A stretch of DNA of 64,000 bases from Gammaproteobacteria bacterium (GTDB taxonomy: Bacteria > Pseudomonadota > Gammaproteobacteria > Eutrophobiales > Eutrophobiaceae). The position numbers and the translations under genes are program-made. Shown piece after piece: positions 17,723 through 40,017 of this stretch; position 1 is the first letter of the stretch, and every line of letters begins with the position of its first letter. The DNA is taken from contig CAXMWX010000003.1 of assembly GCA_963422205.2 (NCBI GenBank), positions 29,623 through 93,622 of the forward strand, written 5' to 3'. The notes under the pieces are model-generated. The model was not told where the DNA came from. It ran no database searches and worked only from the letters and a program-made list of their open reading frames with translations.

Positions 17723-18760
17723 TTATTCTAAAGCCAGGGTATTTGACAGTGTCACCAGCTGCTGCAACCTGGCCTTGGCCGCACCTGAGGCAAGTACCTC
17801 ATCGGCCAGCACCACACCGGCATTAAGGTCATCACACAGCCCGGCCAGATAGATCGCCGCCGCGGCGTTCAACACGACGATGTCGCGGCAGGGGCCGGGA
17901 TCGTTATTCAGCACAGCCTGCATCACGCTATGACTGTGCTCGGCACCATCAACGATCAGAGCCTGCCTGATTATCTTCCTGTCCGTCAGGCCAAAGCCAA
18001 ACCGGGCGGGATCGAGCGCATACTCGCTGATGGTATCATCTTTTAATTCAGCCACCCTGGTCGTCGCACACACACTGATCTCATCCATGCCATCGGCAGC
18101 GCATACCACCATGGCATGACAACTGCCCAGTTGTTGTAATACTTCGGCCAGCGGGCGCACCAGTTCCTCACTGTAGACGCCAACGAGTTGACGCTTGACC
18201 CGCGCCGGATTGGTCAGCGGGCCGAGTACATTAAAGATCGTGCGTATGGCCAACTCGGCGCGCGGGCCGGCGGCATGGCGCATCGCCGGATGATGCTTGG
18301 GCGCGAAGATGAAGCCGATGCCCAACTCCACAATGCAACGGGCGATGCCCTCCGGCGGCAGGTCTATGTTGACGCCGGCCTGTTGCAATACATCGGCGCT
18401 GCCGGAGCGGCTGGAGACAGCGCGGTTGTTATGCTTGGCGATGCGACCACCGGCTGCGGCAATGACAAACGCTGCTGTGGTGGAGATATTAAACGACTGG
18501 CTGCCATCACCGCCGGTGCCAACGATGTCCACCAGATTCGTATCGGCCACGCTGACCGGGGTGGCAAAGTCACGCATGACAGCAGCAGCAGCAGCAATCT
18601 CCGTCACTGTCTCGCCCTTCATCCGCAAGGCGATCAGGAAACCAGCAATCTGCGCCTCGGTCGCCTCGCCCGACATGATCGCCCGCATAACGGCCTGCAT
18701 CTGCCCCTGTTGCAGATCATAACCATCGACAAGCAGCGCTATGGCCTGTTGTATGTTCAT
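17723..18760 (-). CDS. trpD: Anthranilate phosphoribosyltransferase
   Basis: [23 protein letters not shown] and [17 protein letters not shown] motifs. Confidence 0.96.
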
Positions 18761-20439
18761 GCCAGGGTCGGTTGGGGTGAGCGAAGATTATCAGCAGGCA
18801 TTTTCCCGGCCCGATACGTTCCATCTATTGCCTCCAACCCAAGATACGCCAGCAGGGACGGGTTTGACGGCTGTTTGATATTGTTAAGGTAATCCAGATA
18901 AATCGGTATGCACTCCAGATGGGAGCGCAGTATCTTGTGTGTATTGAATAATTTTTTATGCAGCCAGTTGATCACATCCAGATTAAAGTATTCCACCAGC
19001 TTGCGGGTTTTCACCAAACGCTGCTCATCAATAATGAGCATGTTGGCACTGTTTAAGATAAACCGCTGTTGCTCATCACAGAAGAACACAAGATCAGAAG
19101 AGATGAAGCGGTAGATGATTTTGCAGGGTGCCTGATACAGCGTGAGCGGTGCCACCTGTTGGTATAGGGAAAAATCTGGCTGGAGGTAATGCGTGGGCTT
19201 TTTGATTCTGCCTTTGCCAATATCCGCCCCCTTAAACACGGGGACAAAGCCTGCTTGCGGATGCTCGACAAGATGTTTTTTATTGTTGCCGGTCACAATG
19301 CCCAGTCCCCATCTGGCCTTGTCTTTAAGCGTGGTGTGTGGTTGTTTGAGCATGAGCGCCAGCGCATCGGCTTCCGTTTCCCTGATGTCGAAATTGATAA
19401 TCGAGAAGGGGTTGTTTGCAAAAGTTGTTTGTCTGTGGGCGGTTGATTTTTCCCCTGAAAGACAATTTATTTTGTTCCCGAAGGCGGCCACCTTTTTGGA
19501 AAAAACAATAGCACTCGCCTTGGTCACGAGGCCCTCAAATGCTTTGCCAAAGTCAATCAACCATGCGATGTTCTGGGCTAATACGATGTTGCGAATCTCG
19601 TGAAATGACTTCACGTTAAAAAATGATTCGGGCAACAACAGCCCTATCTTTCCGTTTTCCTGGACAGATTTTAACATGGCCATCGTAAATAACGCACAAG
19701 AATCAAACGACTGCTGCAAGCCAAACCTTTTGGACAAGACCTGCCTTTGATTCTTAAAATATTTTTTACCCCAGGGCGGGTTGGTGATAAGCACATCGTA
19801 TCTTGCAGCATCGGTCAGGGACAGGAAATCAGCAACCCGCAAATTTTCCCCCTTGTACCCGCTGCGATCAAACAGGCGCCGCCTAGCGATTTCCAGTGCT
19901 ACCGTATCCACCTCATAGCCGGTGAGATGGCGAGGCGACACACCGGCTTCCAGGGCAGCGATTAAAAAATTACCGCTGCCGCAACACGGATCACAAAATC
20001 GGGTTTTTTGATTTAAATCCGCCTTTGCAATCAAGTCCCGACATAATGCCATGGGCGTGTAGTAGACGCCTTGCTTGTTTTTATACGTATTTGAAAGCAC
20101 ATCCTCATACGCCTGTGCCAGTCGGTCGCCATGGTTTTTATCCGCCGGATTGTGCCAGACCTTGTTAAAAATTTCCGCCGCCAGCGGTGCATGATCGTGC
20201 ATTTGAGCATGCTGTTTATTGGCCCTGGCGATGAGCTTCTCATGACCGACAATGTCCTGACAGAATTTCTCGAATGATTGTTTTTTCAGGTAGCCTTTGT
20301 ATTCCGATTTCTCCAGATACCCGGCTTTTATCCAGTTGACTATCGAGGCATGAGAGACGTTGAGCAATGCAGTCGCCTCGGTATAAGAAAGCAGATCAGC
20401 ATGGGCGATGGGATGCTTAAAAAAAAATTTCTGCTGCAT
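18757..20439 (-). CDS. Gamma-class N6-adenine DNA methyltransferase (TaqI/Eco57I-like) with an N-terminal helix-turn-helix
   Basis: Motif I FCDPCCGSGNFL and motif IV VLITNPPWG. The N-terminal LLSYTEATALLNVSHASIVNWIKAGYL is excisionase/MerR-type HTH-like. Likely start is the ATG at 20439 (MQQKFFFK); the ORF stays open up to 20622. Its TGA overlaps the trpD ATG (ATGA). Confidence 0.8.
   Translation of the reverse strand: MQQKFFFKHPIAHADLLSYTEATALLNVSHASIVNWIKAGYLEKSEYKGYLKKQSFEKFCQDIVGHEKLIARANKQHAQMHDHAPLAAEIFNKVWHNPADKNHGDRLAQAYEDVLSNTYKNKQGVYYTPMALCRDLIAKADLNQKTRFCDPCCGSGNFLIAALEAGVSPRHLTGYEVDTVALEIARRRLFDRSGYKGENLRVADFLSLTDAARYDVLITNPPWGKKYFKNQRQVLSKRFGLQQSFDSCALFTMAMLKSVQENGKIGLLLPESFFNVKSFHEIRNIVLAQNIAWLIDFGKAFEGLVTKASAIVFSKKVAAFGNKINCLSGEKSTAHRQTTFANNPFSIINFDIRETEADALALMLKQPHTTLKDKARWGLGIVTGNNKKHLVEHPQAGFVPVFKGADIGKGRIKKPTHYLQPDFSLYQQVAPLTLYQAPCKIIYRFISSDLVFFCDEQQRFILNSANMLIIDEQRLVKTRKLVEYFNLDVINWLHKKLFNTHKILRSHLECIPIYLDYLNNIKQPSNPSLLAYLGLEAIDGTYRAGKMPADNLRSPQPTLA
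20419..20427. repeat. A9/T9 homopolymer in codons 5-7 (FFF) of the gamma-class methyltransferase
   Basis: Counted directly (ggatgctt + 9 a + ttt). Confidence 0.9.
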
Positions 20440-20706
20440 TGATGTCTTCGGGTAAGGGGCTGGATAAACCGCCCCGGCTTGGTTGACAAGACGGCAGGAT
20501 ATTATCACACCAATACCGTATTTCAATGGATTAGCGTGTTGCACAGCAGCCTCCCGACGCCTTGCCTGCCATGTCGATAAAGTCTCGCCAGTGAGTGATT
20601 GAGGATTGGGGTCGATCGCCATTTACAGGCATGACTGCGGTCGCCGGGGCTAACTCTACCATGCAGGTTTTCAAACAAAACAGGGGTGCTGGAATTTTTT
20701 ATACTA

Positions 20707-21153
20707 CTAATGCGGTTGTGTAAACTCAAAGAGGGATTGGAGTAATCTCGCATTATATTTCGATATTTTATCAATCCTGGTTTGTTTTCTGGTATAAAGA
20801 GCCTCTTTGTCATTGGTGGTTTTCACTCTTTCCCGATTTTCAAAATCTGAAAAAACAGCTTCATTTGGATTAATACTTAAAACTACATTTCTGTTGCCAC
20901 GACGAGATATGTCTTTGTGCTTGTACTTGTGAATATAAATCAAATTTCGATAGTCATCGATCATTTTTGCTTCCTCTTTGTTGCGGGCTGATGAGATGGG
21001 AACGATGTGATGAAGTTCAAACTTGTCTCTTTTTTTCCACTTCATGAAAGCTAAAATATTTGCGTTTTGGAATAGCACTTCTTCTTGTCGATCTATGGAA
21101 AAATCCTGTGTTTCCAACATTGAGTCGGAAAAATCGGTTATTATCAACTTCAA
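20707..21153 (-). CDS. HNH nuclease domain ORF, the C-terminal part of a split restriction endonuclease
   Basis: FELHHIVPIS...DDYRNLIYIHKYKH fits the HNH pattern (HH...N...H). It overlaps the upstream 313-aa ORF by 137 nt in the +1 frame. Confidence 0.7.
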   Translation of the reverse strand: MKLIITDFSDSMLETQDFSIDRQEEVLFQNANILAFMKWKKRDKFELHHIVPISSARNKEEAKMIDDYRNLIYIHKYKHKDISRRGNRNVVLSINPNEAVFSDFENRERVKTTNDKEALYTRKQTRIDKISKYNARLLQSLFEFTQPH

Positions 21154-21958
21154 AATAGACAGTCGTTTTCAGCAAACCCATAATCTGCTGCGCCTGATTC
21201 TTCCAATTATGAATATCACGTTTAGCGGTTTTGTTTCCCTCAAAATTTTGAGGATTGGCATACGCCTTTACCAATTTGATCACCTTTCTTTGCTCATATT
21301 TTCTCAAGCTACGATATGAATCAAGGAGCTTGATTTTGTCTATACCCTCATTATCATCTGAGAAAATAAACATGAATTCATAGATGCTTATCTTATCATT
21401 CATATAATCGCTAAGATGTAACATGGTCGCCAGTTCAGAAATCCTGCTGCCAAATAGTCTATCTATGGCGTCAGTAAATTTTTTGTACCTGTCAATCAAA
21501 ATATCTGCTTCGATAAATTCAACTGCTCTTATCGTCAATCTACCATGAAAAATTGTTTTTCCCGTTTCATTTATTTTAATTTTTTCTCTTGCCAAAAACC
21601 CCATTTTTTCCAAATCAGGAAAGAAATTCTTTTTTATGGAATTAATCGTACCACGCCCCAATCCAGAATTTATCCTGTCGACGATTGCCTGGTAATGTCT
21701 AGCGTACTCCGGCAACTCATCGTCTTTTGCGTAGTCGCCTGGAGGAATTGTGAAATAATCTGTTCCCACAACATCATATATATTCTGTAAAATCAACCCA
21801 ATGTCATTTAAATTATATCTGTTATGTTGAGAAATATGCCAACCACGATAATTATCATCAAGCAGCCGATTTATTATGTATGTTAAGAAAAGATTATTCT
21901 CTTTTATCGATAAAATCTCATCCAGAATTTGCTGTGTTTCTTTAAGGGCGATATTCAT
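21017..21958 (-). CDS. Putative restriction endonuclease N-terminal (DNA-recognition) part, no recognisable catalytic motif
   Basis: 313-aa AT-rich ORF with a 4-nt overlap to the upstream methyltransferase stop. It ends 11 nt after an A7 tract, and a 1-nt shorter tract would join it to the HNH ORF. Confidence 0.6.
   Translation of the reverse strand: MNIALKETQQILDEILSIKENNLFLTYIINRLLDDNYRGWHISQHNRYNLNDIGLILQNIYDVVGTDYFTIPPGDYAKDDELPEYARHYQAIVDRINSGLGRGTINSIKKNFFPDLEKMGFLAREKIKINETGKTIFHGRLTIRAVEFIEADILIDRYKKFTDAIDRLFGSRISELATMLHLSDYMNDKISIYEFMFIFSDDNEGIDKIKLLDSYRSLRKYEQRKVIKLVKAYANPQNFEGNKTAKRDIHNWKNQAQQIMGLLKTTVYFEVDNNRFFRLNVGNTGFFHRSTRRSAIPKRKYFSFHEVEKKRQV
21030..21036. repeat. T7 (A7 on the coding strand) homopolymer at the frame break of the nuclease gene
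   Basis: Coding strand: GTG GAA AAA AAG AGA CAA GTT TGA in the upstream frame, against ATG AAG TGG AAA AAA AGA GAC AAG TTT GAA CTT CAT CAC in the HNH frame. Confidence 0.9.
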
Positions 21959-22725
21959 CTGACTTCCCTTAATTTTTTTCTGGCTATTGCTACATAGTCT
22001 TTTTCTATATCACAACACAGAAAATTCCTTTTTAGTTTTTTTGCGGCAACTGCTGTTGTACCAACGCCAACAAAACAATCCAAAATCAGGTCATTTTTAT
22101 TTGAACTTGCCTTGATGATTCTCCTTATCAACTCTAATGGCTTTGGCGTAGCATGTTGCATCTTTTGAACTTTACCATTGACTTTATTTTTATGTCTCTC
22201 ACTCGTAATATGCCAGACTTCGCCGCAAAGTTTTCCCTTTGGATTAGGAAACCAACGTTTGCCGTTTTTAATTATACCTTTCCTTTTTGCATGCTCAATT
22301 CTCTTCGTTGACTCATAAGGAATACGTACAGCATCATAGTTGAACGTGTGGTTTTTTCCCTTAGTGAAGAAAATTATCGTTTCCTGTCCATTGCTAAAAC
22401 GCTTTCTGGCACCGCTCAATCCATCTCTTTTATCCCAGGTTATCCAGTTTTGAAAATACATACCCTTGCTGACAAGATATTGCAGTATGAATGCCGAATT
22501 ATATGGTGTATTAAAAATATACAGGCTGCCATTGCGTTTTAGTTTTGGAATAAGAGCATCTATCCAGGAATAGGTAAAATCAAAAAATGCTTTTCTTGAT
22601 TTGAAGGTATCCCAATATGCTTTTCGCATATTGTAGGGCGGGTCAATAATAGCCAGATCAATAATGTCATCATCAACCTGTTGCAAAAATTTAAAGCAAT
22701 CCATTTGATATATTTTATTTAGCAT
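21955..22725 (-). CDS. Beta-class DNA methyltransferase (N4/N6 family, DPPY type, probably m6A)
   Basis: Motif IV LAIIDPPYN lies N-terminal and motif I LDCFVGVGTT lies C-terminal, which is the beta-class order. Confidence 0.88.
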   Translation of the reverse strand: MLNKIYQMDCFKFLQQVDDDIIDLAIIDPPYNMRKAYWDTFKSRKAFFDFTYSWIDALIPKLKRNGSLYIFNTPYNSAFILQYLVSKGMYFQNWITWDKRDGLSGARKRFSNGQETIIFFTKGKNHTFNYDAVRIPYESTKRIEHAKRKGIIKNGKRWFPNPKGKLCGEVWHITSERHKNKVNGKVQKMQHATPKPLELIRRIIKASSNKNDLILDCFVGVGTTAVAAKKLKRNFLCCDIEKDYVAIARKKLREVR

Positions 22726-23612
22726 AATTTTTTTTGATGCGATTCTTGCTCAAGGAGCATTTTAGCTAACCCTAACTTTTTATCGATTATTCTCCGGTAA
22801 TTTTTCATTACTTCATAACCAATAAAATGACGTCCCTCTTCTTTTGCCACTTTTAAGGTTGTGCCGCTACCTGCAAAAGGATCAAGCACAACATCATCAA
22901 TATAAGTAAATAACCTTACGCAACGATAAACAATCTCTTCTGGCATAATGGCACTATGATTACCAAAGGCAATATCATTTTTCCCCGGAACAGGTATTCG
23001 CCAAATCTGTTTTGTGAATTTCACCCATTCCTCTTCGGTTAGTTTACTTTGTTCTCTGATTTTCCTAGGCTTATTATTTACTGTTTTACCGTCTTTCACA
23101 TAGACAGTTATAAATTCACTGGTATTTTGTGCGTAAAAATTTCTTGGATAAGGATAACTTCCAAACATCAGTTTTTTACTTGGATTAGTTCGATCCCAAA
23201 TATAAACATCATATAAAAACATATCCGTTTTTTCCTGATATAAAATCGAATGCTGTATGTCAGCATTAAGATCAAAAATGTGTCTATTATAGTGCGTTGA
23301 GTAATCCGCCTTCTTCATTGGCACAAGTGGAGTATTGATTATCAGTTTTCCATTTGGTTTTAATACCCGCTCACACTCTTGCCAAACTTTCAATAGCCCT
23401 TTAATGAATAACTCATAATCATTTATATCGCCAAGCTGCTCTTTATGTTTTTTGTCATTACTGTTTTTTTGATAGCCATCCTTGGCATAATCTTTAATAT
23501 TAAAATAAGGCGGCGATGTAACGATCAAATGAACTGCCCTGTCTGGGACTTCACGCATATTTTGAGCGTTTTTATAAAACACTTTATTTAGAAAATCTTT
23601 ATTCTTATGCAC
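22719..23612 (-). CDS. Beta-class DNA methyltransferase (N4/N6 family, SPPY type, possibly m4C)
   Basis: Motif IV LIVTSPPYF lies N-terminal and motif I LDPFAGSGTT lies C-terminal. GTG start with GAGG 8 nt upstream. Confidence 0.88.
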   Translation of the reverse strand: MHKNKDFLNKVFYKNAQNMREVPDRAVHLIVTSPPYFNIKDYAKDGYQKNSNDKKHKEQLGDINDYELFIKGLLKVWQECERVLKPNGKLIINTPLVPMKKADYSTHYNRHIFDLNADIQHSILYQEKTDMFLYDVYIWDRTNPSKKLMFGSYPYPRNFYAQNTSEFITVYVKDGKTVNNKPRKIREQSKLTEEEWVKFTKQIWRIPVPGKNDIAFGNHSAIMPEEIVYRCVRLFTYIDDVVLDPFAGSGTTLKVAKEEGRHFIGYEVMKNYRRIIDKKLGLAKMLLEQESHQKKLC

Positions 23613-30056: not shown

Positions 30057-31127
30057 ATGTTTGAATATATCAGCAGTTGGTACAAGCGTTATTTTACTGA
30101 TCCACAGGCCGCCCTGCTGGTTATTCTGCTCATGTTAAGTTTTGTCGTGATTTACTGCTTTGGCGGCATGTTGGCACCGTTGTTGGCCGCCATTATTATC
30201 GCTTATATGCTGGAGGAGCCCGTGCAGAAATTGACCCGCAAAAATATCCCTCATGTTTTTGCCGTCATCGTTGTCTTTACGCTGTTTGTGTTATTTGCTG
30301 CCTTTATCGTCATTGGCCTGCTGCCCATTCTGTCAAGACAAACCAGCCAGTTTTTTCAGGAATTGCCCGGCATGATCACCCGTGGCCAGGGCTTGTTATT
30401 ACGCCTGCCTGAACAATATCCCGGCATCATCTCCGCTGAGCTGGTCACGGACATGAGTGCCACCTTGCGTGGCGGGCTGTCCGAGATAGGCCAGAATATC
30501 CTGTCCATTTCCGTTGCGTCTATTCCGGCCATCATCACGGTGCTGGTGTATCTCGTGCTGGTGCCATTGATGATCTTCTTTTTGCTGAAGGATAAAAACC
30601 AAATCATGACCTGGCTCAGCCGATTTTTGCCGAATGAACGCACGTTGATTAACAGGCTCTGGTATGAAATGAATGAGCAAATTGGTAATTATATTCGCGG
30701 CAAAGTCTATGAGATCATCATCGTGGGGGCCGCTGCGTATGTCTTATTCAGGATAATGGGGCTGAACTATGCCTCGTTGTTGGCCATTACTGTCGGCCTG
30801 TCCGTGCTGATCCCGTATATCGGTGCGGCGGCGGTGACGGTGCCGATCGCTCTGGTGGCGTATTTTCAATGGGGTTTTGAGTCGCATTTTATCTGGCTGA
30901 TGCTGTGCTACCTCATCATCCAGTTTTTAGATGGCAACGTGCTGGTGCCGGTGCTGTTCTCTGATGTGGTGAACCTGCATCCGGTGGCGATCATCATCGC
31001 CATTCTGATCTTCGGCGGCCTGTGGGGGTTCTGGGGGGTGTTCTTTGCCATTCCCCTTGCCACCCTGGTCAAAGCGCTGATCAACGCCTGGCCGACACAG
31101 GAAGAGGAAGCACCACAACCCGGCTGA
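30057..31127 (+). CDS. AI-2E family transporter (PerM/YdiK-like permease)
   Basis: ATG at 30057 (MFEYISSWYKRYF...). Polytopic membrane protein of about 356 aa. The longer ORF start would overlap queG on the opposite strand. Confidence 0.8.
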   Translation: MFEYISSWYKRYFTDPQAALLVILLMLSFVVIYCFGGMLAPLLAAIIIAYMLEEPVQKLTRKNIPHVFAVIVVFTLFVLFAAFIVIGLLPILSRQTSQFFQELPGMITRGQGLLLRLPEQYPGIISAELVTDMSATLRGGLSEIGQNILSISVASIPAIITVLVYLVLVPLMIFFLLKDKNQIMTWLSRFLPNERTLINRLWYEMNEQIGNYIRGKVYEIIIVGAAAYVLFRIMGLNYASLLAITVGLSVLIPYIGAAAVTVPIALVAYFQWGFESHFIWLMLCYLIIQFLDGNVLVPVLFSDVVNLHPVAIIIAILIFGGLWGFWGVFFAIPLATLVKALINAWPTQEEEAPQPG

Positions 31128-31166
31128 CACCCTGCATACAAACGAAGCGGCCTGATTTTAAGCGTG

Positions 31167-31646
31167 TCACTCCGCCGCCGCTAATGCCTTGACGGCCAGA
31201 AGCACCTCATCAACATGCCCCTTCACCTTTACCTTACGCCATTCTTTTTGCAACTTGCCCTCGCTGTCGATTAAAAACGTACTGCGCTCTATACCGAGGC
31301 GTTTTTTGCCGTACATGTTTTTCTCTTTGATCACATCAAATAATCGGCACAATCTCTCATCTGTATCTGATAACAACTCAAACGGCAGCTTGTGTTTGCT
31401 TTTGAAATTCTCATGGGAGGCGATGGAGTCTCTGGAGACGCCCAGGATGACGGTGTTTCTGGTGCTGAATTTACGGATGTTATCGCGAAAGTCCTGCCCT
31501 TGCCGGGTACAGCCGGGGGTGCTGTCTTTCGGGTAGAAATACAGGACAATGTGTTTGCCTTGTAAATCGGAGCACGTGATCGTCTGCTCACCGGTTGCCG
31601 GCAGTGCAAAGTCCGGCACTTTTCTACCTACTGTTGGTGTAGTCAT
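31167..31646 (-). CDS. bcp: Thioredoxin-dependent peroxiredoxin Bcp
   Basis: FYPKDSTPGCTRQ peroxidatic Cys motif, 159 aa. Confidence 0.93.
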   Translation of the reverse strand: MTTPTVGRKVPDFALPATGEQTITCSDLQGKHIVLYFYPKDSTPGCTRQGQDFRDNIRKFSTRNTVILGVSRDSIASHENFKSKHKLPFELLSDTDERLCRLFDVIKEKNMYGKKRLGIERSTFLIDSEGKLQKEWRKVKVKGHVDEVLLAVKALAAAE

Positions 31647-31690
31647 CGTGTTCTCTAAACTCCCGAAATGTGCATGAATGTATTTATTTT

Positions 31691-32224
31691 TTATTTAATC
31701 GGCTCTACGATAGCATCCAGATTCCACTGCTCGCAAAAATCCATAAAATCGTTACGCAAGGCAGCAATAGCCGTATCCACCGGGATATGGATGCTTAGAT
31801 GTATGTTGATCATGGGGGTTGCCGTTTGCGATGCCTCATAGGCGGTCAAATGCAGATCATGGATATGAATATTATTGGTTGAGAAAAACCGCAGCAGCTT
31901 GCTGTGTATGCCGGCTTGATCCGCACAGATAACATCCACCGCATAGGGCAGCGAGCCGCCGGTCGAATGATTCAACTCGGTACGCTTGACCTGTATGGTC
32001 AGATCAGTGCCGCTCGCCAGATTCCCCAGGGCATCTTCCACCTTGGCGATGCCATCCCAATTCCCGGACAGCAGCATGAGCAGGGCCAGTTGCTGACCGA
32101 GCATGGTCATACGGCAGTCATGAATACGGCAGCCGCAGTCTGAGATAGTCTGCGCCAGACGCTCCGGCAGGCTGGCGGAATGATCGCCGAGTACGGTGAC
32201 TGCCAGGTGCAGTGGTTTTGTCAT
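31691..32224 (-). CDS. gcvR: Glycine cleavage system transcriptional repressor (tandem ACT domains)
   Basis: Aligns by eye with E. coli GcvR (CGCRIHDCRMTMLGQQLALLMLLSGNWD). The gcvR-bcp pair is divergent from dapA as in E. coli. Confidence 0.85.
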   Translation of the reverse strand: MTKPLHLAVTVLGDHSASLPERLAQTISDCGCRIHDCRMTMLGQQLALLMLLSGNWDGIAKVEDALGNLASGTDLTIQVKRTELNHSTGGSLPYAVDVICADQAGIHSKLLRFFSTNNIHIHDLHLTAYEASQTATPMINIHLSIHIPVDTAIAALRNDFMDFCEQWNLDAIVEPIK

Positions 32225-35143: not shown

Positions 35144-35176
35144 ACCTCATCTTGCAAGCCGTGATTGACTGTAACG

Positions 35177-35878
35177 ATGCTGATCTGCTATCAACATAAC
35201 TTCATTTATCTCAAAGCGCCAAAGACAGCCGGCACATCTGTTGAGATGGCACTTGAGCCGCTCTGTGTGCCTCCGGGGTCGGAAATCAGGGAATGTCGGG
35301 AAGCGATGAGGACGCCTTATGGGATTGTTGGTGCTCGTGGTCCAGCCCCACACCTGCGAAGCGAGCCACTCAAGCGAATAAAACGCCGTCTAGGCTGGCG
35401 TAGTCACAATTCAGCGCGTTACATTCGGCTCCGTATCGGCAAGCAGCGATGGCACCAGAGCATCAAGATAGCCAACATACGCAACCCTTTCGACCAACTT
35501 GTTTCTGCCTATCACTTTCGTTTTCATTACAACACAAAAAAATCAGAGCCTGATTTTGCAGTGCTGCGGAAACATTTTCTGGAGAAAGTTAAAAACAACC
35601 GGTTCAGGCTGCCCTATAACAGAAAAATATTCTTTTTGTTCGGCAATTATATCATTGATAAAGTGATCCGGTTTGAGCATCTCCACGATGATTTAGCCGC
35701 CCTTCAAAACGAGTTAATGCTGCCCATCGATCCGGTTGCTAACCTGCCTCATACCAAGAAGACCTCAAGACGGCATCCGGTTTCGGCGTATTTTGATCGG
35801 CAGGCTATTGAAATTGTGAAGTCACGTTTTGCCTGGGTGTTTGATCGGTTTGACTATCCAACAGAACCAGCGGATTGA
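35177..35878 (+). CDS. Sulfotransferase-family protein
   Basis: N-terminal PAPS 5'-phosphosulfate-binding-type loop FIYLKAPKTAGTSVE, lower GC than the neighbours, and no obvious operon partners. Confidence 0.65.
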   Translation: MLICYQHNFIYLKAPKTAGTSVEMALEPLCVPPGSEIRECREAMRTPYGIVGARGPAPHLRSEPLKRIKRRLGWRSHNSARYIRLRIGKQRWHQSIKIANIRNPFDQLVSAYHFRFHYNTKKSEPDFAVLRKHFLEKVKNNRFRLPYNRKIFFLFGNYIIDKVIRFEHLHDDLAALQNELMLPIDPVANLPHTKKTSRRHPVSAYFDRQAIEIVKSRFAWVFDRFDYPTEPAD

Positions 35879-36017: not shown

Positions 36018-36527
36018 CATGGAGGCGTTAAATATTACCGTGCCACGCAGTTCCTCATAATAGAACGATCAGGAAGATCATCTGGTCGGTGTCTGTGAAT
36101 GCCGGCCTGCGGTTGGTTCCGGTTATCTTTATCTGAATGGACTGCCATCCGGGGCCTGCCCGTCAATACCCGGTGTGTTTCCGTCAGCCAGTTTACTGTC
36201 GAGAAGTTTGACGGCCACCTTCGCCAATGTCCCCGGCCAGCTTGCCGCCCAGGGTACATGTCAGGCCATATTGTAAAAAATGATCGCACAGCGTGTTGCG
36301 GACGGAAGCCAGCTTCTTGACGACAGGCGAGAGATCGAAAGGTGCTGGTGGATGGCATAGCAAATGAATTAACCCGTGACCATGCCATCCTGTAGTATAA
36401 GAGCCAGCGTTTCCTCAAGAGAGTACACGGGTAATCTCCACATACCTGAAGTTTGTTTGATAATGTAATCTGCGATTTCTTTTATTGTTTTTTGTTTTCT
36501 TTTTACATTTTTAGTTTCCCAGGCATT

Positions 36528-37082
36528 TTACCTGACCACCTGCTGCTTGTCAGGCCGGCGGAACAAGGCGGAGTGCCGCAAGATATGAAAGCTGATCGTG
36601 GCCGAACTGAGCAGCAGTTTGTCATCAGCACTCTTTACCACCGCCCGCAGGCTATGGGTGCCACGGTCAAGGTTTGACAGGTTAAACGAGGTGCTGCCAC
36701 GGCCATACTCCTGGCCATCCAGATACAAAACCACGGTATGCCCGCTGGACAATGCCGGTTCAACCACAACGGACACCGAAACCGTGCCTTCATTGCTGCG
36801 AATGGCCTCATCATTTTTGGGCGATACGATCTGGATTTTTTTATACAGGCTTGTTTTCTTCTGTTGTGGGGTGTATTCGAATTGCCTGTCAGTGGCGGGC
36901 GGAATGCTGATCGGATCGTCAAGCTTAACCTCAACCGAATCATCCGCCGGGGCATCAGAGAAAATAATATTCCCATCCTCATCCACCGTCTTGTAAACCT
37001 TGGCAGACACTGCCGCCTGGTTCAGGCCGAGCAGCAGCAGGAGCAGAAATAATTGTACAGGATTAGGCATGGTATTCAGCAT
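36528..37082 (-). CDS. DUF4124-domain periplasmic protein
   Basis: Internal ATG at 37082 gives a signal peptide (LFLLLLLLGLNQAAVSA) followed by KVYKTVDEDGNIIFSDAP, the hallmark DUF4124 start. Confidence 0.75.
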   Translation of the reverse strand: MLNTMPNPVQLFLLLLLLGLNQAAVSAKVYKTVDEDGNIIFSDAPADDSVEVKLDDPISIPPATDRQFEYTPQQKKTSLYKKIQIVSPKNDEAIRSNEGTVSVSVVVEPALSSGHTVVLYLDGQEYGRGSTSFNLSNLDRGTHSLRAVVKSADDKLLLSSATISFHILRHSALFRRPDKQQVVR

Positions 37083-37273
37083 AATGCAATTCCGCTCATC
37101 TCTCAAGGAGCTGACCGGCTGGTGGTTAAGCGTTCCAAAATCATTGCCTGGTACAAGATGCCATGCGTACTTTCGATGAGGATCACCACCTGTACAAGCA
37201 GGCAGCCGTGCTATACTGCCCCGATGTTTGACAGGGGTTTGCTGCCAGAAGCATGGACAGGAGCGCAGAGGCA

Positions 37274-38464
37274 ATGACCAACTTCGCAGCGGGCACCATC
37301 TGGGCCGGCGACAACTTGCCCGTCATGCGCGGCATCAACTCCGCCTGCATCGACCTCATCTACCTCGACCCGCCGTTTAACTCCAATCGAAACTACGAAG
37401 CGCCCATCGGCTCCAAAGCCGCCGGCGCCGCCTTCAAAGATGCCTGGACCTTGAACGATGTGGATGTGCATGAGCATGGCGAGCTGGCCGACCGCAGCCC
37501 CGCCGCCTACGCGGTGATCGAGGCGGCGCGCCAAGCCCACGGCAAAAGCATGATGAGCTACCTTATTTTCATGGCCGTGCGCCTCTTGGAGATGCAACGC
37601 ATCCTCAAACCCAGCGGCAGCATCTACCTGCATTGCGACCCAACGGCGAGCCATTATCTCAAACTTTTGATGGACGGGATTTTTGGGCGGGGTAATTTCA
37701 GAAATGAAATGATCTGGTGTTACAGCCGACCATCAGCACCCAAGCAACGTCAACTCTCGCGGGTTCATGATACCCTGCTCTGGTACAGCATGGGTGAGAC
37801 TTGGACGTTTAACGCCGATGCCATCCGTCAACCCTACGCCGCCGGCAGCCGCTCCCGCGAGGGCTATGCGGCGACCAAATCAAAAGTGGCAAAAGGTGCG
37901 GTGGCGCTGGATGAGCGCGGCAAGTTTCCTGAAAGCTGGATATACATCCCGCCCATCAAGGGCAATTCAAAAGAATATGTCGGCTACCCCACGCAGAAGC
38001 CGTTGGCCCTGCTGGATCGGATCATCAAGGCCAGTTCCAACGAAGGCGACCTGGTGCTGGACCCCTTTTGTGGCTGTGCGACCACGCTGGTGGCCGCCGA
38101 CCGCTTGCAGCGCGACTGGGCCGGGATTGACTTATCGCCACTGGCCATCAAGCTGGTGAACGAACGCATCGCCGATGACCGGGGATTATGGGGCGGGGCC
38201 ATCGCGCTCGATGGGCCGCCAGCGCGCACCGACTTGGGCAAGCTGCCCAGCTACCGCACCCACCGCCACCGGCTGTATGGCGAACAGGAAGGCATCTGCA
38301 CCGGTTGCGAGACGCACTTTCCCTTTAAGGTGATGGAGGTAGACCACATCCTGCCGCGCAGCAAAGGCGGCACCGACCACCCCGACAACCTGCAACTGCT
38401 TTGCTCACACTGCAACCGCAGCAAAGGTGACCGCACCATGGCCGAATGGAAGGCTAACCAATAA
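37274..38464 (+). CDS. Beta-class N4/N6 DNA methyltransferase fused to a C-terminal HNH nuclease domain
   Basis: Motif IV IYLDPPFNSN, motif I LDPFCGCATT, then CTGCE...EVDHILPRSKGGTDHPDNLQLLCSHCNRSKG (HNH with two CxxC pairs). About 63% GC in a counted line. The start is ATG at 37274 or 37253. Confidence 0.85.
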   Translation: MTNFAAGTIWAGDNLPVMRGINSACIDLIYLDPPFNSNRNYEAPIGSKAAGAAFKDAWTLNDVDVHEHGELADRSPAAYAVIEAARQAHGKSMMSYLIFMAVRLLEMQRILKPSGSIYLHCDPTASHYLKLLMDGIFGRGNFRNEMIWCYSRPSAPKQRQLSRVHDTLLWYSMGETWTFNADAIRQPYAAGSRSREGYAATKSKVAKGAVALDERGKFPESWIYIPPIKGNSKEYVGYPTQKPLALLDRIIKASSNEGDLVLDPFCGCATTLVAADRLQRDWAGIDLSPLAIKLVNERIADDRGLWGGAIALDGPPARTDLGKLPSYRTHRHRLYGEQEGICTGCETHFPFKVMEVDHILPRSKGGTDHPDNLQLLCSHCNRSKGDRTMAEWKANQ

Positions 38465-38536
38465 TTATCCAGCAGGGATTAATACCAATTAGAAATTGAA
38501 AAATGTCTTTTTATTTTACCTTCCGTATTTTCCCTC

Positions 38537-38569
38537 AAACCTATAAGGTTTTAGAAACCTTATAGGTTT
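38537..38569. terminator. Perfect 15-bp stem hairpin (AAACCTATAAGGTTT-tag-AAACCTTATAGGTTT) between the convergent MTase-HNH and glnA genes
   Basis: Read directly. The stem is AT-rich and no clean U-tract follows, so a terminator function is only plausible. Confidence 0.45.
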
Positions 38570-38601
38570 ATACCCCCCCAATACAGGGAATGACATCAGG
38601 A

Positions 38602-40017
38602 TTACAGGCTGTAGTACATGGAAAATTCAACCGGGTGTGTCGTCATACGAAAACGGGTCACTTCTTCCATCTTGAGCTCAAGGTAGCCATCTATCATGCT
38701 GTCTGTGAATACGCCACCCGTGGTCAAAAATGCCCTGTCATTGTCCAGCGCCTCCAGTGCCTGATCCAGGGAGTGGCAGACTGTTGGCAGCCCCTGCTCC
38801 TCCTCCGGGGGCAGATCGTATAAATCCTTATCCAGCGGGGCGCCCGGATCCAACTGGTTGACGATGCCATCCAGGCCGGCCATCAGCATGGCGGTAAAAG
38901 CGAAATACGGGTTGCCACAGGAATCCGGGAAACGTACCTCAATGCGGCGTGCCTTTGGATTTGACACCCAGGGAATACGGCAGGAAGCCGAGCGGTTGCG
39001 GGCTGAATAGGCCAGAATTAACGGCGCCTCAAACCCCGGCACCAGACGCTTGTAGCTGTTGGTGCTGGCATTGGTAAAGGCATTGATGGCCCTGGCGTGC
39101 TTAAAAATACCGCCCAGATAATGCAGTGCCGTCTCGGACAGGCCGCCGTATTTATCGCCGCTGAACAGGTTATCGCCATCTTTGGACAGCGACTGATGCA
39201 CGTGCATGCCATTACCATTATCGCCCACCAGCGGCTTGGGCATAAACGTGACGGTCTTGCCGAAGGCATGGCCGACATTGTGCGCGCAATATTTCAGGGT
39301 TAATAATTCATCGGCTTTTCTGGTCAAGGTGGCGAATCGGGTGCCGATCTCTGCCTGGCCGGCGGTGGCGACTTCATGGTGATGCACCTCCACAGTCAGC
39401 CCCATCGCTTCCAGGGCAGTGCAGATAGCCGAGCGCACATTCTGACAGGAATCCACCGGCGGCACCGGGAAATAACCGCCTTTGGGGCCCGGGCGATGGC
39501 CGCTGTTTTTATCTTCCATGATCGTATCGCTGTTCCAGTGTCCCTCTTCGGAGTCCACTTCATAAAAGGCACGGTTGACGCTGTCACTCCAACGTGCCTC
39601 ATCGAAGATAAAAAATTCAGGCTCAGGGCCGAAATAGGCCGCATCGGCGATCCCCGTTGATTGTAAATAGGCTTCTGCGCGTTTTGCCAGAGAGCGGGGA
39701 CAGCGTTCATACCCCTGCATGGTCAACGGATCCAACACATCGCAACGAATATTCACCGTGGCATCGTCATAGAAAGGATCCAGCACGGCGGTTTCTGTGT
39801 CCGGCATCAAGACCATGTCGGATTCATTGATGCCTTTCCAGCCGGCAATGGATGAGCCGTCAAACATTTTGCCATTGTCAAAGAATTCATCATTCAGCAC
39901 CGCCGCCGGCACCGAGACATGTTGTTCCTTGCCTCGGGTATCAACAAAGCGCAAATCAACAAACTTGGCCTCGCACTCCTTGAGTAAACCACGCACCTTA
40001 TCTCTGGACATTATCAT
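38602..40017 (-). CDS. glnA: Glutamine synthetase type I
   Basis: [16 protein letters not shown]..., [11 protein letters not shown], and the adenylylation-site region [11 protein letters not shown]. Confidence 0.97.

What the first reader, a model, noticed from the sequence alone, without database searches (positions are those of the whole stretch)
37253..38464. Solitary GC-rich gene encoding a DNA methyltransferase fused to an HNH nuclease domain
One roughly 400-aa polypeptide combines a complete beta-class N4/N6 MTase (IYLDPPFNSN ... LDPFCGCATT) with a C-terminal zinc-finger HNH nuclease (CTGCE ... EVDHILPRSKGGTDHPDNLQLLCSHCNRSKG).

Its composition (about 63% GC in a counted line) is clearly above the window average, and AT-rich DNA flanks it. 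It sits alone, wedged between a DUF4124 gene and glnA, with no separate nuclease, specificity or control gene. Modification and cleavage domains in one small protein could make a minimal self-contained R-M or defence module, a methyl-directed nuclease, or a phage- or homing-derived remnant.

Together with the trp island, this window carries four DNA MTase genes and two HNH domains.
Basis: partly seen in the sequence, partly recalled or inferred. Interest (0 to 1): 0.6.

Follow-up and report, generated by a model that had tools for sequence, protein, structure and literature searches.

The report
Solitary one-protein methylase-HNH restriction unit
A single foreign gene wedged between two housekeeping genes encodes a DNA methylase joined to an intact HNH nuclease; it probably works as a one-protein restriction-modification enzyme and belongs to a large, untested family that has spread across many phyla of sponge-associated microbes by swapping its DNA-recognition module.

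Summary
The ORF at 37253-38464 (likely start 37274) encodes a complete beta-class N6_N4 DNA methyltransferase followed by a zinc-finger HNH nuclease.

- **Active sites:** both catalytic centres are at least 99% conserved in 74 full-length homologues, so the HNH is not degenerate.
- **Insertion:** in four relatives of the same family, glnA is followed directly by the DUF4124 gene. Here about 1.4 kb holding only this gene sits in that spacer. It has no transposase, terminal repeats or partner gene, and its GC3 is raised.
- **Paralogues:** the same 3-Mb genome holds five HNH-type copies. The same methylase core is also fused to Mrr-like (3-4 copies) and GIY-YIG (1 copy) nucleases.
- **Distribution:** close relatives lie almost only in sponge-symbiont MAGs of at least eight phyla, including one archaeal MAG. 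About 10% of those copies ride IS1595 elements.
- **Recognition module:** the conserved "arms" stay about 80% identical while at least 13 unrelated central recognition cassettes are exchanged, even between alleles at one chromosomal site.

Best reading (0.55): a single-chain restriction-modification enzyme gained by horizontal transfer. It is not a phage remnant and not a methyl-directed nuclease. I found no characterised or solved member. Novelty: new variant of a known kind. Activity is inferred, not shown.

The parts
37274..38464 (+). MTase-HNH fusion gene (396 aa from M8; the alternative upstream ATG at 37253 gives 403 aa)
   Evidence: ORF. The gene-call length of 396 aa matches P0001. The consensus start of homologues aligns near M8.
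37349..38161 (+). Beta-class N6_N4 DNA methyltransferase domain (aa 33-303). Motif IV DPPF lies at 37367-37378 and motif I FCGCAT at 38066-38083.
   Evidence: Pfam PF01555, E 6e-46. Both motifs are 100% conserved in 74 homologues. The fold matches RsrI, M.BceJIV, CcrM and MboIIA.
37706..37972 (+). Variable central segment (aa ~152-240), at the position of the target-recognition domain in beta-class MTases. Ours is the 85-aa type 'T3'.
   Evidence: Column conservation drops to 0.2-0.5 here. There are at least 13 unrelated cassettes of 63-171 aa on arms about 80% identical. Our type recurs at 71-81% identity on backbones only 48-68% identical.
38165..38287 (+). Conserved basic linker (aa 305-345, ...RTDLGKLPSYRTHRHRLYGEQEG) joining the MTase to the HNH
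   Evidence: 80-100% column conservation. Modelled with pLDDT about 70-90, and whole-model pTM is 0.82.
38297..38434 (+). Zinc-finger HNH (beta-beta-alpha-Me) nuclease domain (aa 349-394): C349xxC352, D364-H365, N379, C384xxC387-N388
   Evidence: Pfam HNH 6e-14 and HNH_5 3e-13. It resembles the HNH of Cas9, IscB and group II intron maturase. All listed residues are at least 99% conserved.
37083..37273 (.). Divergent intergenic region between the DUF4124 start and the fusion gene start. The tentative left edge of the inserted DNA is near 37143.
   Evidence: The motif TTTTGGAACGC (minus strand, 37131-37142) aligns with the sequence that follows the glnA terminator in relative G003. The boundary is uncertain because the relatives are divergent.
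38465..38601 (.). AT-rich (34% GC) spacer between the convergent fusion gene and glnA. It holds a perfect 15-nt hairpin at 38537-38569 that is a multi-copy repeat.
   Evidence: GC. Inverted repeat I2. Further copies lie on C9 of the genome. Contigs break here and depth rises. The spacer does not align with the relatives' glnA terminator region.
36528..37082 (-). DUF4124 gene (flank). In relatives it lies directly downstream of glnA on the same strand.
   Evidence: Pfam DUF4124. Synteny in G007, G005, G008 and G003.
38602..40017 (-). glnA (flank), glutamine synthetase type I
   Evidence: ORF. 84% identical to a protein named type I glutamate-ammonia ligase.

Best explanation
The gene encodes a single-chain restriction-modification enzyme built on a beta-class (Mod-like, probably N6-adenine) DNA methyltransferase.

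Proposed mechanism:
- The central variable module of the methyltransferase reads a short DNA sequence.
- On the host chromosome the enzyme methylates that sequence.
- On incoming unmethylated DNA, the rigidly linked C-terminal HNH domain has no recognition domain of its own. It borrows the methylase's specificity and nicks or cuts at or near the site. It probably acts as a dimer, as beta-class MTases do, which would give a double-strand break.

Origin: the gene reached this gammaproteobacterium by horizontal transfer as a one-gene cassette of about 1.4 kb and landed in the glnA-DUF4124 spacer. Its nearest relative is a Chloroflexota copy at 80% amino-acid identity.

Family behaviour: the family diversifies its specificity by recombinational exchange of the recognition cassette between conserved arms. 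It spreads between phyla, in part on IS1595 elements.

Shown here: the architecture, intact motifs, the insertion, solitariness, the distribution and the mosaicism. Inferred: methylation, cleavage, adenine specificity, dimer action and a defence role.
For: 1. Both domains are complete, and their catalytic residues are at least 99% conserved in 74 full-length homologues from many phyla. Both activities are therefore under selection.
2. There is no partner gene. Own-genome paralogue loci share no neighbour family. The 121 flanking genes of about 70 loci fall into 128 Pfam families, and the commonest has 7 members. No recurrent small ORF touches our locus.
3. In this one genome the same MTase core (40-58% identity) is fused to HNH (5 copies), Mrr_cat/PD-(D/E)xK (3-4 copies) or GIY-YIG (1 copy). 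The nuclease fold is interchangeable, as expected if its job is simply to cut where the MTase binds.
4. Variation is of the specificity type. There are at least 13 unrelated central cassettes on arms about 80% identical. Alleles at one conserved Chloroflexota site carry 5-6 cassette types. The five HNH paralogues of this genome fall in four cassette clusters, and no other paralogue matches ours directly.
5. The distribution is sporadic and driven by transfer. Only 6 of the 41 genomes searched (40 relatives plus the window's own) have any hit. The HNH tail occurs in 9 of 401 genomes of the class. Our copy sits in a 99*-supported clade with Chloroflexota, Poribacteria and an archaeal MAG.
6. The gene is an insertion. 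Relatives have glnA directly followed by DUF4124, and the gene's GC3 is 75% against about 62% for its neighbours.
7. The AF2 model is confident with a fixed inter-domain arrangement (pLDDT 84.8, pTM 0.82).
8. The MTase half matches N6-adenine beta-class enzymes, including M.MboIIA. The natural partner of M.MboIIA, R.MboII, is an HNH enzyme (PMC4081073).
Against: - There is no biochemical, methylome or phage-challenge evidence for any member. I found no characterised homologue in the literature or in the PDB.
- A covalently linked nuclease and methylase needs a control mechanism to avoid self-cleavage on establishment, and none is evident from the sequence.
- In most hosts the gene's GC has ameliorated (r = 0.83 with flank GC). 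Many copies sit inside metabolic operons. This would also fit a long-resident housekeeping or epigenetic role.
- PADLOC models see only an MTase.
- Several copies in other genomes are broken, so the gene is dispensable.
- The HNH subtype resembles nicking HNH domains (Cas9, IscB, intron maturases), so a double-strand cut is not assured.
Confidence: 0.55

Rival explanations
1. Selfish mobile gene. The main role of the HNH is the element's own spread or retention, not host defence. It could act like a homing endonuclease, cutting unmethylated 'empty' DNA so that repair copies the gene in. Or it could act like an addiction module that kills cells which lose the methylase. Any defence would be a by-product.
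For: - It is a single-gene insertion into an intergenic spacer between housekeeping genes, with no transposase, inverted repeats or target duplication.
- Other copies are wedged inside metabolic operons, with the start overlapping the upstream stop.
- The family spreads across phyla and occurs in many copies per genome.
- About 10% of copies ride IS1595 elements.
- Copies decay often.
Against: - Insertion sites are heterogeneous (128 neighbour families), so there is no single homing site.
- The recognition module that varies is the methylase's own. Classical homing enzymes do not methylate.
- No empty-site allele is seen in the two samples that hold the organism.
- This reading largely overlaps the best explanation, because R-M systems are themselves selfish (established view, Kobayashi 2001, from memory).
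Confidence: 0.2
2. An orphan or epigenetic methyltransferase, or an anti-restriction methylase. The HNH domain would serve a non-restriction task such as DNA repair, recombination or nicking for replication or regulation, or it would be tolerated baggage.
For: - The gene is solitary, and PADLOC recognises only MTase models, including an 'orphan MTase' model.
- Its GC has ameliorated in most hosts, and Chloroflexota copies hold conserved chromosomal positions.
- Related beta-class enzymes CcrM and M.BceJIV are regulators (PDB titles; their roles are from memory).
Against: - The HNH catalytic residues and zinc ligands are at least 99% conserved, so the domain is not baggage.
- The distribution is sporadic.
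- Rapid exchange of recognition cassettes and up to ten fusion paralogues with three nuclease folds in one genome are not expected of a regulatory methylase.
Confidence: 0.12
3. A methyl-directed (Type IV-like) nuclease. The MTase-like domain would only read methylated DNA and guide the HNH to modified foreign DNA.
For: HNH domains are common effectors of modification-dependent enzymes such as McrA, TagI and VcaM4I (PMC12707154). PDB McrA gives a weak hit.
Against: The SAM-binding motif FCGCAT and the catalytic DPPF are invariant across the family. This argues for an active transferase, not a reader. No known modification-reader domain (SRA, EVE, wH, RAMA) is detected.
Confidence: 0.04
4. A remnant of a phage or prophage: a phage methylase combined with a packaging or homing HNH.
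For: The PHROG MTase and HNH families each hit one half of the protein. A handful of IMG/VR contigs carry full-length relatives at 53% identity or less.
Against: - In 50,697 phage records the listed best matches cover only the MTase part at no more than 42% identity, and only 3 of 518 matching records cover at least 80% of the protein.
- No phage genes flank the gene.
- The inserted DNA is only about 1.4 kb.
- No single PHROG family covers both domains.
Confidence: 0.03

Closest known systems
Type III restriction-modification Mod subunits (EcoP15I Mod, PDB 4zcf; H. pylori Mod, 6k0w; Mbo45V Mod, 7dsu)
   Same: - Beta-class motif order (IV before I).
- Conserved N- and C-terminal arms around a central variable DNA-recognition domain that is exchanged between alleles.
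- Sequence, profile and fold hits (PADLOC MTase_III 1e-55; PDB hits).
   Different: There is no Res helicase-nuclease gene anywhere nearby. The nuclease is a small HNH fused to the methylase C-terminus. The protein is about 200 aa shorter than typical Mod.
Type IIC/IIG single-chain R-M enzymes (MmeI family; PMC2582602, PMC2731913)
   Same: One polypeptide carries both the methylase and the nuclease and shares one recognition module. The gene is solitary. Specificity can be changed by altering the recognition part.
   Different: MmeI-type enzymes have an N-terminal PD-(D/E)xK nuclease, a gamma-class (NPPY/W) MTase and a C-terminal TRD, and are about 900-1000 aa. Here there is a beta-class MTase with an internal TRD and a C-terminal HNH, about 400 aa in all.
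MboII/MnlI-type Type IIS systems (an HNH REase plus a separate beta-class MTase such as M.MboIIA, PDB 1g60)
   Same: They use the same two catalytic folds: a beta-class N6A MTase (TM-score 0.81-0.83 normalised to the target) and an HNH nuclease (PMC4081073).
   Different: In those systems the nuclease is a separate protein with its own recognition domain. Here it is fused and has no recognisable DNA-reading domain of its own.
LlaGI / Type ISP single-polypeptide R-M (PMC2790908)
   Same: A single chain combines a nuclease (Mrr-family) and an MTase. The Mrr-tailed paralogues in this genome echo that pairing.
   Different: Type ISP enzymes carry a helicase-like translocase, are about 1,500 aa and use a gamma-class MTase. 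No ATPase is present here.
IS1595-family 'transporter' insertion sequences with passenger genes
   Same: About 9 of 82 related loci have an IS1595 transposase directly upstream of the fusion gene. This matches earlier notes from this scan.
   Different: At this locus there is no transposase, no inverted repeats and no target duplication. The gene stands alone.
HNH domains of Cas9/IscB and group II intron maturases
   Same: These are the best profile and PDB matches for the tail. They share the CxxC...DH...N...CxxCN layout with a terminal Asn in place of His.
   Different: Those HNH domains are guided by RNA or by an intron RNP. Here the only available guide is the methylase domain.

Membership tests
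Beta-class N6/N4 amino-DNA methyltransferase (Pfam N6_N4_Mtase) | Motif IV (D/S)PP(Y/F) lies N-terminal to SAM-binding motif I (FxGxG), with the recognition domain between them | tested here: met
   DPPF is at 39-42 and FCGCAT at 272-277. PF01555 covers 33-303, E 6e-46. The fold matches RsrI, BceJIV and MboIIA.
Beta-class N6/N4 amino-DNA methyltransferase (Pfam N6_N4_Mtase) | Target base is N6-adenine rather than N4-cytosine | tested here: inconclusive
   Asp in DPPF and the nearest solved relatives (all N6A) suggest adenine. No methylome data are available.
HNH (beta-beta-alpha-Me) nuclease | General-base His preceded by Asp, a metal-ligand Asn, and a Cys4 zinc site | tested here: met
   C349, C352, D364-H365, N379, C384 and C387-N388 are present and at least 99% conserved in 74 homologues.
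Type IIC/IIG single-chain R-M (MmeI-like) | Nuclease and methylase in one polypeptide, with no separate R or S gene | tested here: met
Type IIC/IIG single-chain R-M (MmeI-like) | MmeI architecture: N-terminal PD-(D/E)xK nuclease, gamma-class MTase, C-terminal TRD | tested here: not met
   The order here is a beta-class MTase (internal TRD) followed by a C-terminal HNH. There are no MmeI or Eco57I Pfam hits.
Type IIC/IIG single-chain R-M (MmeI-like) | Demonstrated site-specific cleavage and protective methylation | not testable with these tools
   This needs biochemistry or a methylome.
Type III R-M | A mod gene paired with an adjacent res (SF2 helicase-nuclease) gene | tested here: not met
   The neighbours are DUF4124 and glnA. 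SMC_N, AAA_23, AAA_16 and AAA_29 ATPase-type domains are each seen in only 2-4 of 121 flanking genes, and no helicase family is among the 25 listed.
IS1595 passenger (transporter IS) | An IS1595 DDE transposase adjacent, with terminal inverted repeats bounding the unit | tested here: not met
   There is no transposase within the insertion, no flanking inverted repeats or target duplication, and no tblastn hit to the IS1595 transposase on contig C5. The feature is met in about 9 related loci elsewhere.
Homing endonuclease gene | Presence/absence polymorphism at one defined target site, with the nuclease cutting the empty allele | tested here: inconclusive
   Relatives in other genera of the same family have the empty glnA-DUF4124 junction. 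Across the family the insertion sites differ widely. No empty allele is seen in the reads. Cleavage cannot be tested here.
Type IV (modification-dependent) HNH restriction enzymes | A modification-reader domain (SRA, EVE, wH, McrA-N) and no active methylase | tested here: not met
   No reader domain is detected, and the MTase catalytic motifs are invariant.

The most novel reading that the evidence does not exclude
The beta-MTase-nuclease fusions (HNH, Mrr or GIY-YIG tails) are an unrecognised class of one-gene, self-mobilising R-M elements. The tethered nuclease would cut unmethylated DNA of cells that lack the element. Repair would then install the about 1.4-kb cassette at new intergenic sites without any transposase. 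This 'methylation-protected homing' would explain three things: the solitary insertions, the spread across phyla and into an archaeal MAG within sponge microbiomes, and the reported separate enrichment of PF01555 and PF01844 in sponge metagenomes.
Probability: 0.12. Interest if true: 0.8.

Novelty: new variant of a known kind. Interest (0 to 1): 0.55.

Why it matters
If the family is active as proposed, it would be the smallest natural R-M format known to me: about 400 aa, with a beta-class methylase lending its recognition module to an HNH cutter. It also comes with a natural library of exchangeable recognition cassettes, which would be useful for engineering new restriction or nicking specificities.

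It would give a concrete molecular basis for the long-noted excess of methylase and HNH domains in sponge microbiomes. It is also a clear marker of gene flow between bacterial phyla, and possibly archaea, within one host-associated community.

Finally, standard defence-finders call such genes orphan methylases at best, so R-M counts in symbiont genomes may be underestimated.

Tried and rejected
- **Conserved partner gene:** rejected. No family recurs among own-genome paralogue loci. Across about 70 loci there are 128 Pfam families among 121 neighbours. Among small ORFs of 35-130 aa, clusters are confined to host-synteny groups and none includes our locus.
- **IS or transposon borders at our locus:** none found. 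There are no inverted repeats, target duplication or transposase. The flanks match nothing in the other loci.
- **Downstream hairpin as an element end:** rejected. It is a multi-copy host repeat that also occurs on C9.
- **Exact insertion boundaries:** only tentative, because the nearest relatives with the empty site share just 75-83% glnA identity. The same-genus genome G001 is rearranged here; a TonB-dependent receptor gene follows its glnA.
- **Phage or plasmid origin:** rejected. Viral contigs rarely carry the full fusion.
- **HNH tail attached to other partners:** rejected. All 10 sampled shorter hits are truncated MTase-HNH proteins.
- **Transcription evidence:** the runs found are of unknown kind and kept as contigs, so nothing can be said about expression.
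- **Empty-site allele in reads:** not seen.
- **Literature:** no paper with the terms MTase-HNH or methyltransferase-HNH. Type II and HDRM reviews list HNH nucleases only as separate REases or Type IV enzymes. REBASE could not be searched.
- **Second HNH domain in the window:** not found.
Full report
**Observation**

The ORF 37253..38464 (+) exists as described. Pfam finds a full N6_N4_Mtase domain (residues 33-303, E 6e-46) and an HNH domain (349-394, E 6e-14). NCBIfam and the PDB place the N-terminal part with adenine-specific beta-class methyltransferases (M.BceJIV, M.RsrI, CcrM, M.MboIIA, Type III Mod). They place the tail with the HNH of Cas9, IscB and group II intron maturases.

The gene caller's product (396 aa) and the homologue alignment favour a start at M8, which is 37274.

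The gene is 60.0% GC with GC3 of 75.5%. The window is 53.5% GC and neighbouring genes have GC3 of 60-64%. Only the downstream spacer is AT-rich, at 34% GC.

A second HNH domain could not be found.

**It is an insertion**

In four relatives of the same family (G007, G005, G008, G003), glnA is followed on the same strand by the DUF4124 gene. The spacer is 140-180 bp and holds a GC-rich terminator hairpin. In the window that spacer is occupied, in the opposite orientation, by the fusion gene plus a 137-bp AT-rich tail.

The tail ends in a perfect 15-nt hairpin (38537-38569), which is a multi-copy host repeat.

A short motif shared with G003 suggests a left boundary near 37143, giving about 1.4 kb of inserted DNA. 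The relatives are too divergent to fix the ends.

There are no inverted repeats, target duplications, transposase or integrase at the locus. Contigs from two samples carry the insertion identically, and no empty allele was seen.

**It is solitary, here and elsewhere**

The genome (2.99 Mb) holds five intact MTase-HNH paralogues at 42-58% pairwise identity. It also holds three intact copies and one split copy in which the same methylase core carries an Mrr_cat/PD-(D/E)xK tail, and one 821-aa copy with a GIY-YIG domain.

No neighbour family recurs between these loci. Among 121 genes flanking about 70 related loci from other genomes, 128 Pfam families occur and the commonest has seven members, which reflects host synteny. 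Small ORFs likewise form no family-wide partner.

Copies in other genomes sit inside metabolic operons, sometimes with the start overlapping the upstream stop.

**Both activities are under selection**

Across 74 full-length homologues the following are 99-100% conserved:
- DPPF and FCGCAT in the methylase;
- the four zinc cysteines, D364-H365, N379 and N388 in the HNH.

The 40-residue basic linker is also conserved. An AlphaFold2 model built on 50 sequences is confident and has a defined inter-domain arrangement (pLDDT 84.8, pTM 0.82).

Foldseek finds only beta-class methylases in the PDB, and they cover just the N-terminal half (TM-score about 0.5 normalised to the query). No solved structure has this architecture.

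The HNH tail subtype is essentially always attached to this methylase. There are 898 representative clusters at E of 1e-10 or better, and all ten sampled shorter hits are truncated fusions.

**Specificity-type variation**

Residues ~152-240 are where beta-class enzymes carry the recognition domain, and this segment is hypervariable. At least 13 unrelated cassettes of 63-171 aa occur on arms that stay about 80-86% identical to ours.

Conversely, our 85-aa cassette recurs at 71-81% identity on backbones only 48-68% identical. These are in Poribacteria, an archaeal MAG and other Chloroflexota.

At one conserved chromosomal site in Chloroflexota (same flanking genes, 14-15 genomes) the alleles carry five or six cassette types. 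At a second site inside a hydantoinase operon there are three types plus a cassette-deleted copy.

The five HNH paralogues of this genome fall in four cassette clusters, and no other paralogue matches ours directly. From memory of the phasevarion and methylome-diversification literature, this is the pattern known from Type III mod alleles and Type I S subunits.

**Distribution and mobility**

The top 120 database hits all carry both domains at 62-83% identity. In named genomes, nearly all of the 80 loci with close relatives are MAGs whose names or bin codes mark sponge or marine-holobiont studies. The phyla are Chloroflexota, Poribacteria, Alpha- and Gammaproteobacteria, Cyanobacteria, Dadabacteria and Spirochaetota, plus one Nitrosopumilaceae MAG. 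Several genomes carry more than one copy.

Linking the bin codes to sponges rests partly on my memory of those studies. MAG binning can also misplace contigs.

The tree puts our copy in a strongly supported clade that mixes Chloroflexota, the archaeal MAG, Poribacteria and own-genome paralogues. Its nearest neighbour is a Chloroflexota copy at 80% identity.

Within the host's class the tail occurs in 9 of 401 genomes, and only 6 of the 41 genomes searched (40 relatives plus the window's own) have any hit. Gene GC tracks host GC (r = 0.83), so most copies are old residents. Ours is 6 points above its flanks, which fits a more recent arrival.

An IS1595-family transposase lies directly upstream of the fusion gene in about 9 of 82 loci, mostly outside Chloroflexota and including the archaeal MAG. 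This independently confirms a lead from earlier notes of this scan and gives one route for spread between phyla. It does not apply to the copy in this window.

In phage and plasmid records the listed best matches cover only the methylase half; only 3 phage and 6 plasmid records have a match covering at least 80% of the protein. Only about six of the 80 best viral-contig relatives are full-length.

**Interpretation**

The best reading is a single-chain R-M enzyme. The methylase's recognition cassette sets the site, host sites are methylated, and the tethered HNH cuts or nicks unmethylated sites on incoming DNA. I give this 0.55.

The interchangeability of HNH, Mrr and GIY-YIG tails on one methylase core is the strongest argument that the tail's job is simply cleavage where the methylase binds.

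The main rival (0.2) is that the nuclease mainly serves the element's own spread or retention. This overlaps with the selfish behaviour already accepted for R-M systems.

An orphan or regulatory methylase with a repair-type HNH (0.12), a methyl-directed nuclease (0.04) and a phage remnant (0.03) fit the evidence less well.

None of the activities has been measured.

**Comparison with known systems**

- **Type III Mod:** the protein resembles Mod in its methylase and allele structure but has no Res.
- **MmeI-type Type IIG:** it resembles these enzymes in logic but not in class, order or nuclease fold.
- **MboII-type systems:** it uses the same two folds (beta-class MTase plus HNH REase), but those are separate proteins.

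I found no paper describing the fusion. Two broad reviews mention HNH only in separate REases or Type IV enzymes. One paper notes that PF01555 and PF01844 are each enriched in sponge metagenomes (PMC12284385), and this family may contribute to that. REBASE could not be searched, so an uncited characterised member cannot be excluded.

**Verdict**

The feature is real and well supported: a solitary, horizontally acquired MTase-HNH gene that belongs to a large, mosaic, mobile family. It is a new variant of a known kind (single-chain R-M). Interest is moderate, because the function is inferred and because the same family has already been flagged elsewhere in this scan.

Noticed in passing
Own genome (outside the window): C4:7665-9101(+), C4:40698-42188(-), C5:195761-197284(-), split copy C7:33127-34635(-); C14:105001-107466(-): The same beta-class MTase core is fused to an Mrr_cat/NA-iREase1 (PD-(D/E)xK) tail in three intact copies and one split copy. 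In an 821-aa protein it is fused to a GIY-YIG domain. All are solitary.
   Followed up: partly
window 18757-23612 (-): An R-M gene cluster sits inside the trp operon, next to trpD (17723-18757). It comprises a 620-aa gamma-class N6_Mtase+TaqI_C protein, a 312-aa ORF with no Pfam hit (a possible nuclease), and two overlapping beta-class MTases, one DPPY and one SPPY.
   Followed up: partly
window 38537-38569, and genome C9:19676-19710 and C9:22682-22715: A perfect 15-nt hairpin (AAACCTATAAGGTTT/AAACCTTATAGGTTT) is a multi-copy REP-like repeat. Assemblies break at it and local depth rises 5-fold.
   Followed up: partly
Own genome C10:30096-31761 (-): A frameshifted IS1595-family transposase (30857-31761) is followed on the same strand by a different beta-class MTase (30096-30611, about 30% identical to the finding). 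This may be a decayed IS1595 with a passenger methylase.
   Followed up: no
L027, L039, L062, L067, L086, L088, L090 (Chloroflexota loci), just 3' of the fusion gene: A conserved ORF of about 91 aa on the opposite strand abuts or overlaps the 3' end of the fusion gene in one synteny group. I did not identify it.
   Followed up: no
L054:6391-10867 and L049:7989-14496: Tandem arrays of three or more MTase-fusion paralogues lie side by side in a Poribacteria genome and an Arenicellales genome.
   Followed up: no
L024, L080, L081, L089, L093, L094, L095, L096, L064, L091: Many related copies are split, truncated or lack the central cassette, which indicates frequent decay of the family.
   Followed up: partly
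window 35165-35878 (+) and 36035-36418 (-): A low-GC (48%) sulfotransferase-family gene and an ORF with no Pfam match lie between bamC and DUF4124. In relative G007 the genes after DUF4124 match genes on C11 of this genome instead. A rearrangement breakpoint therefore lies beside the insertion.
   Followed up: no
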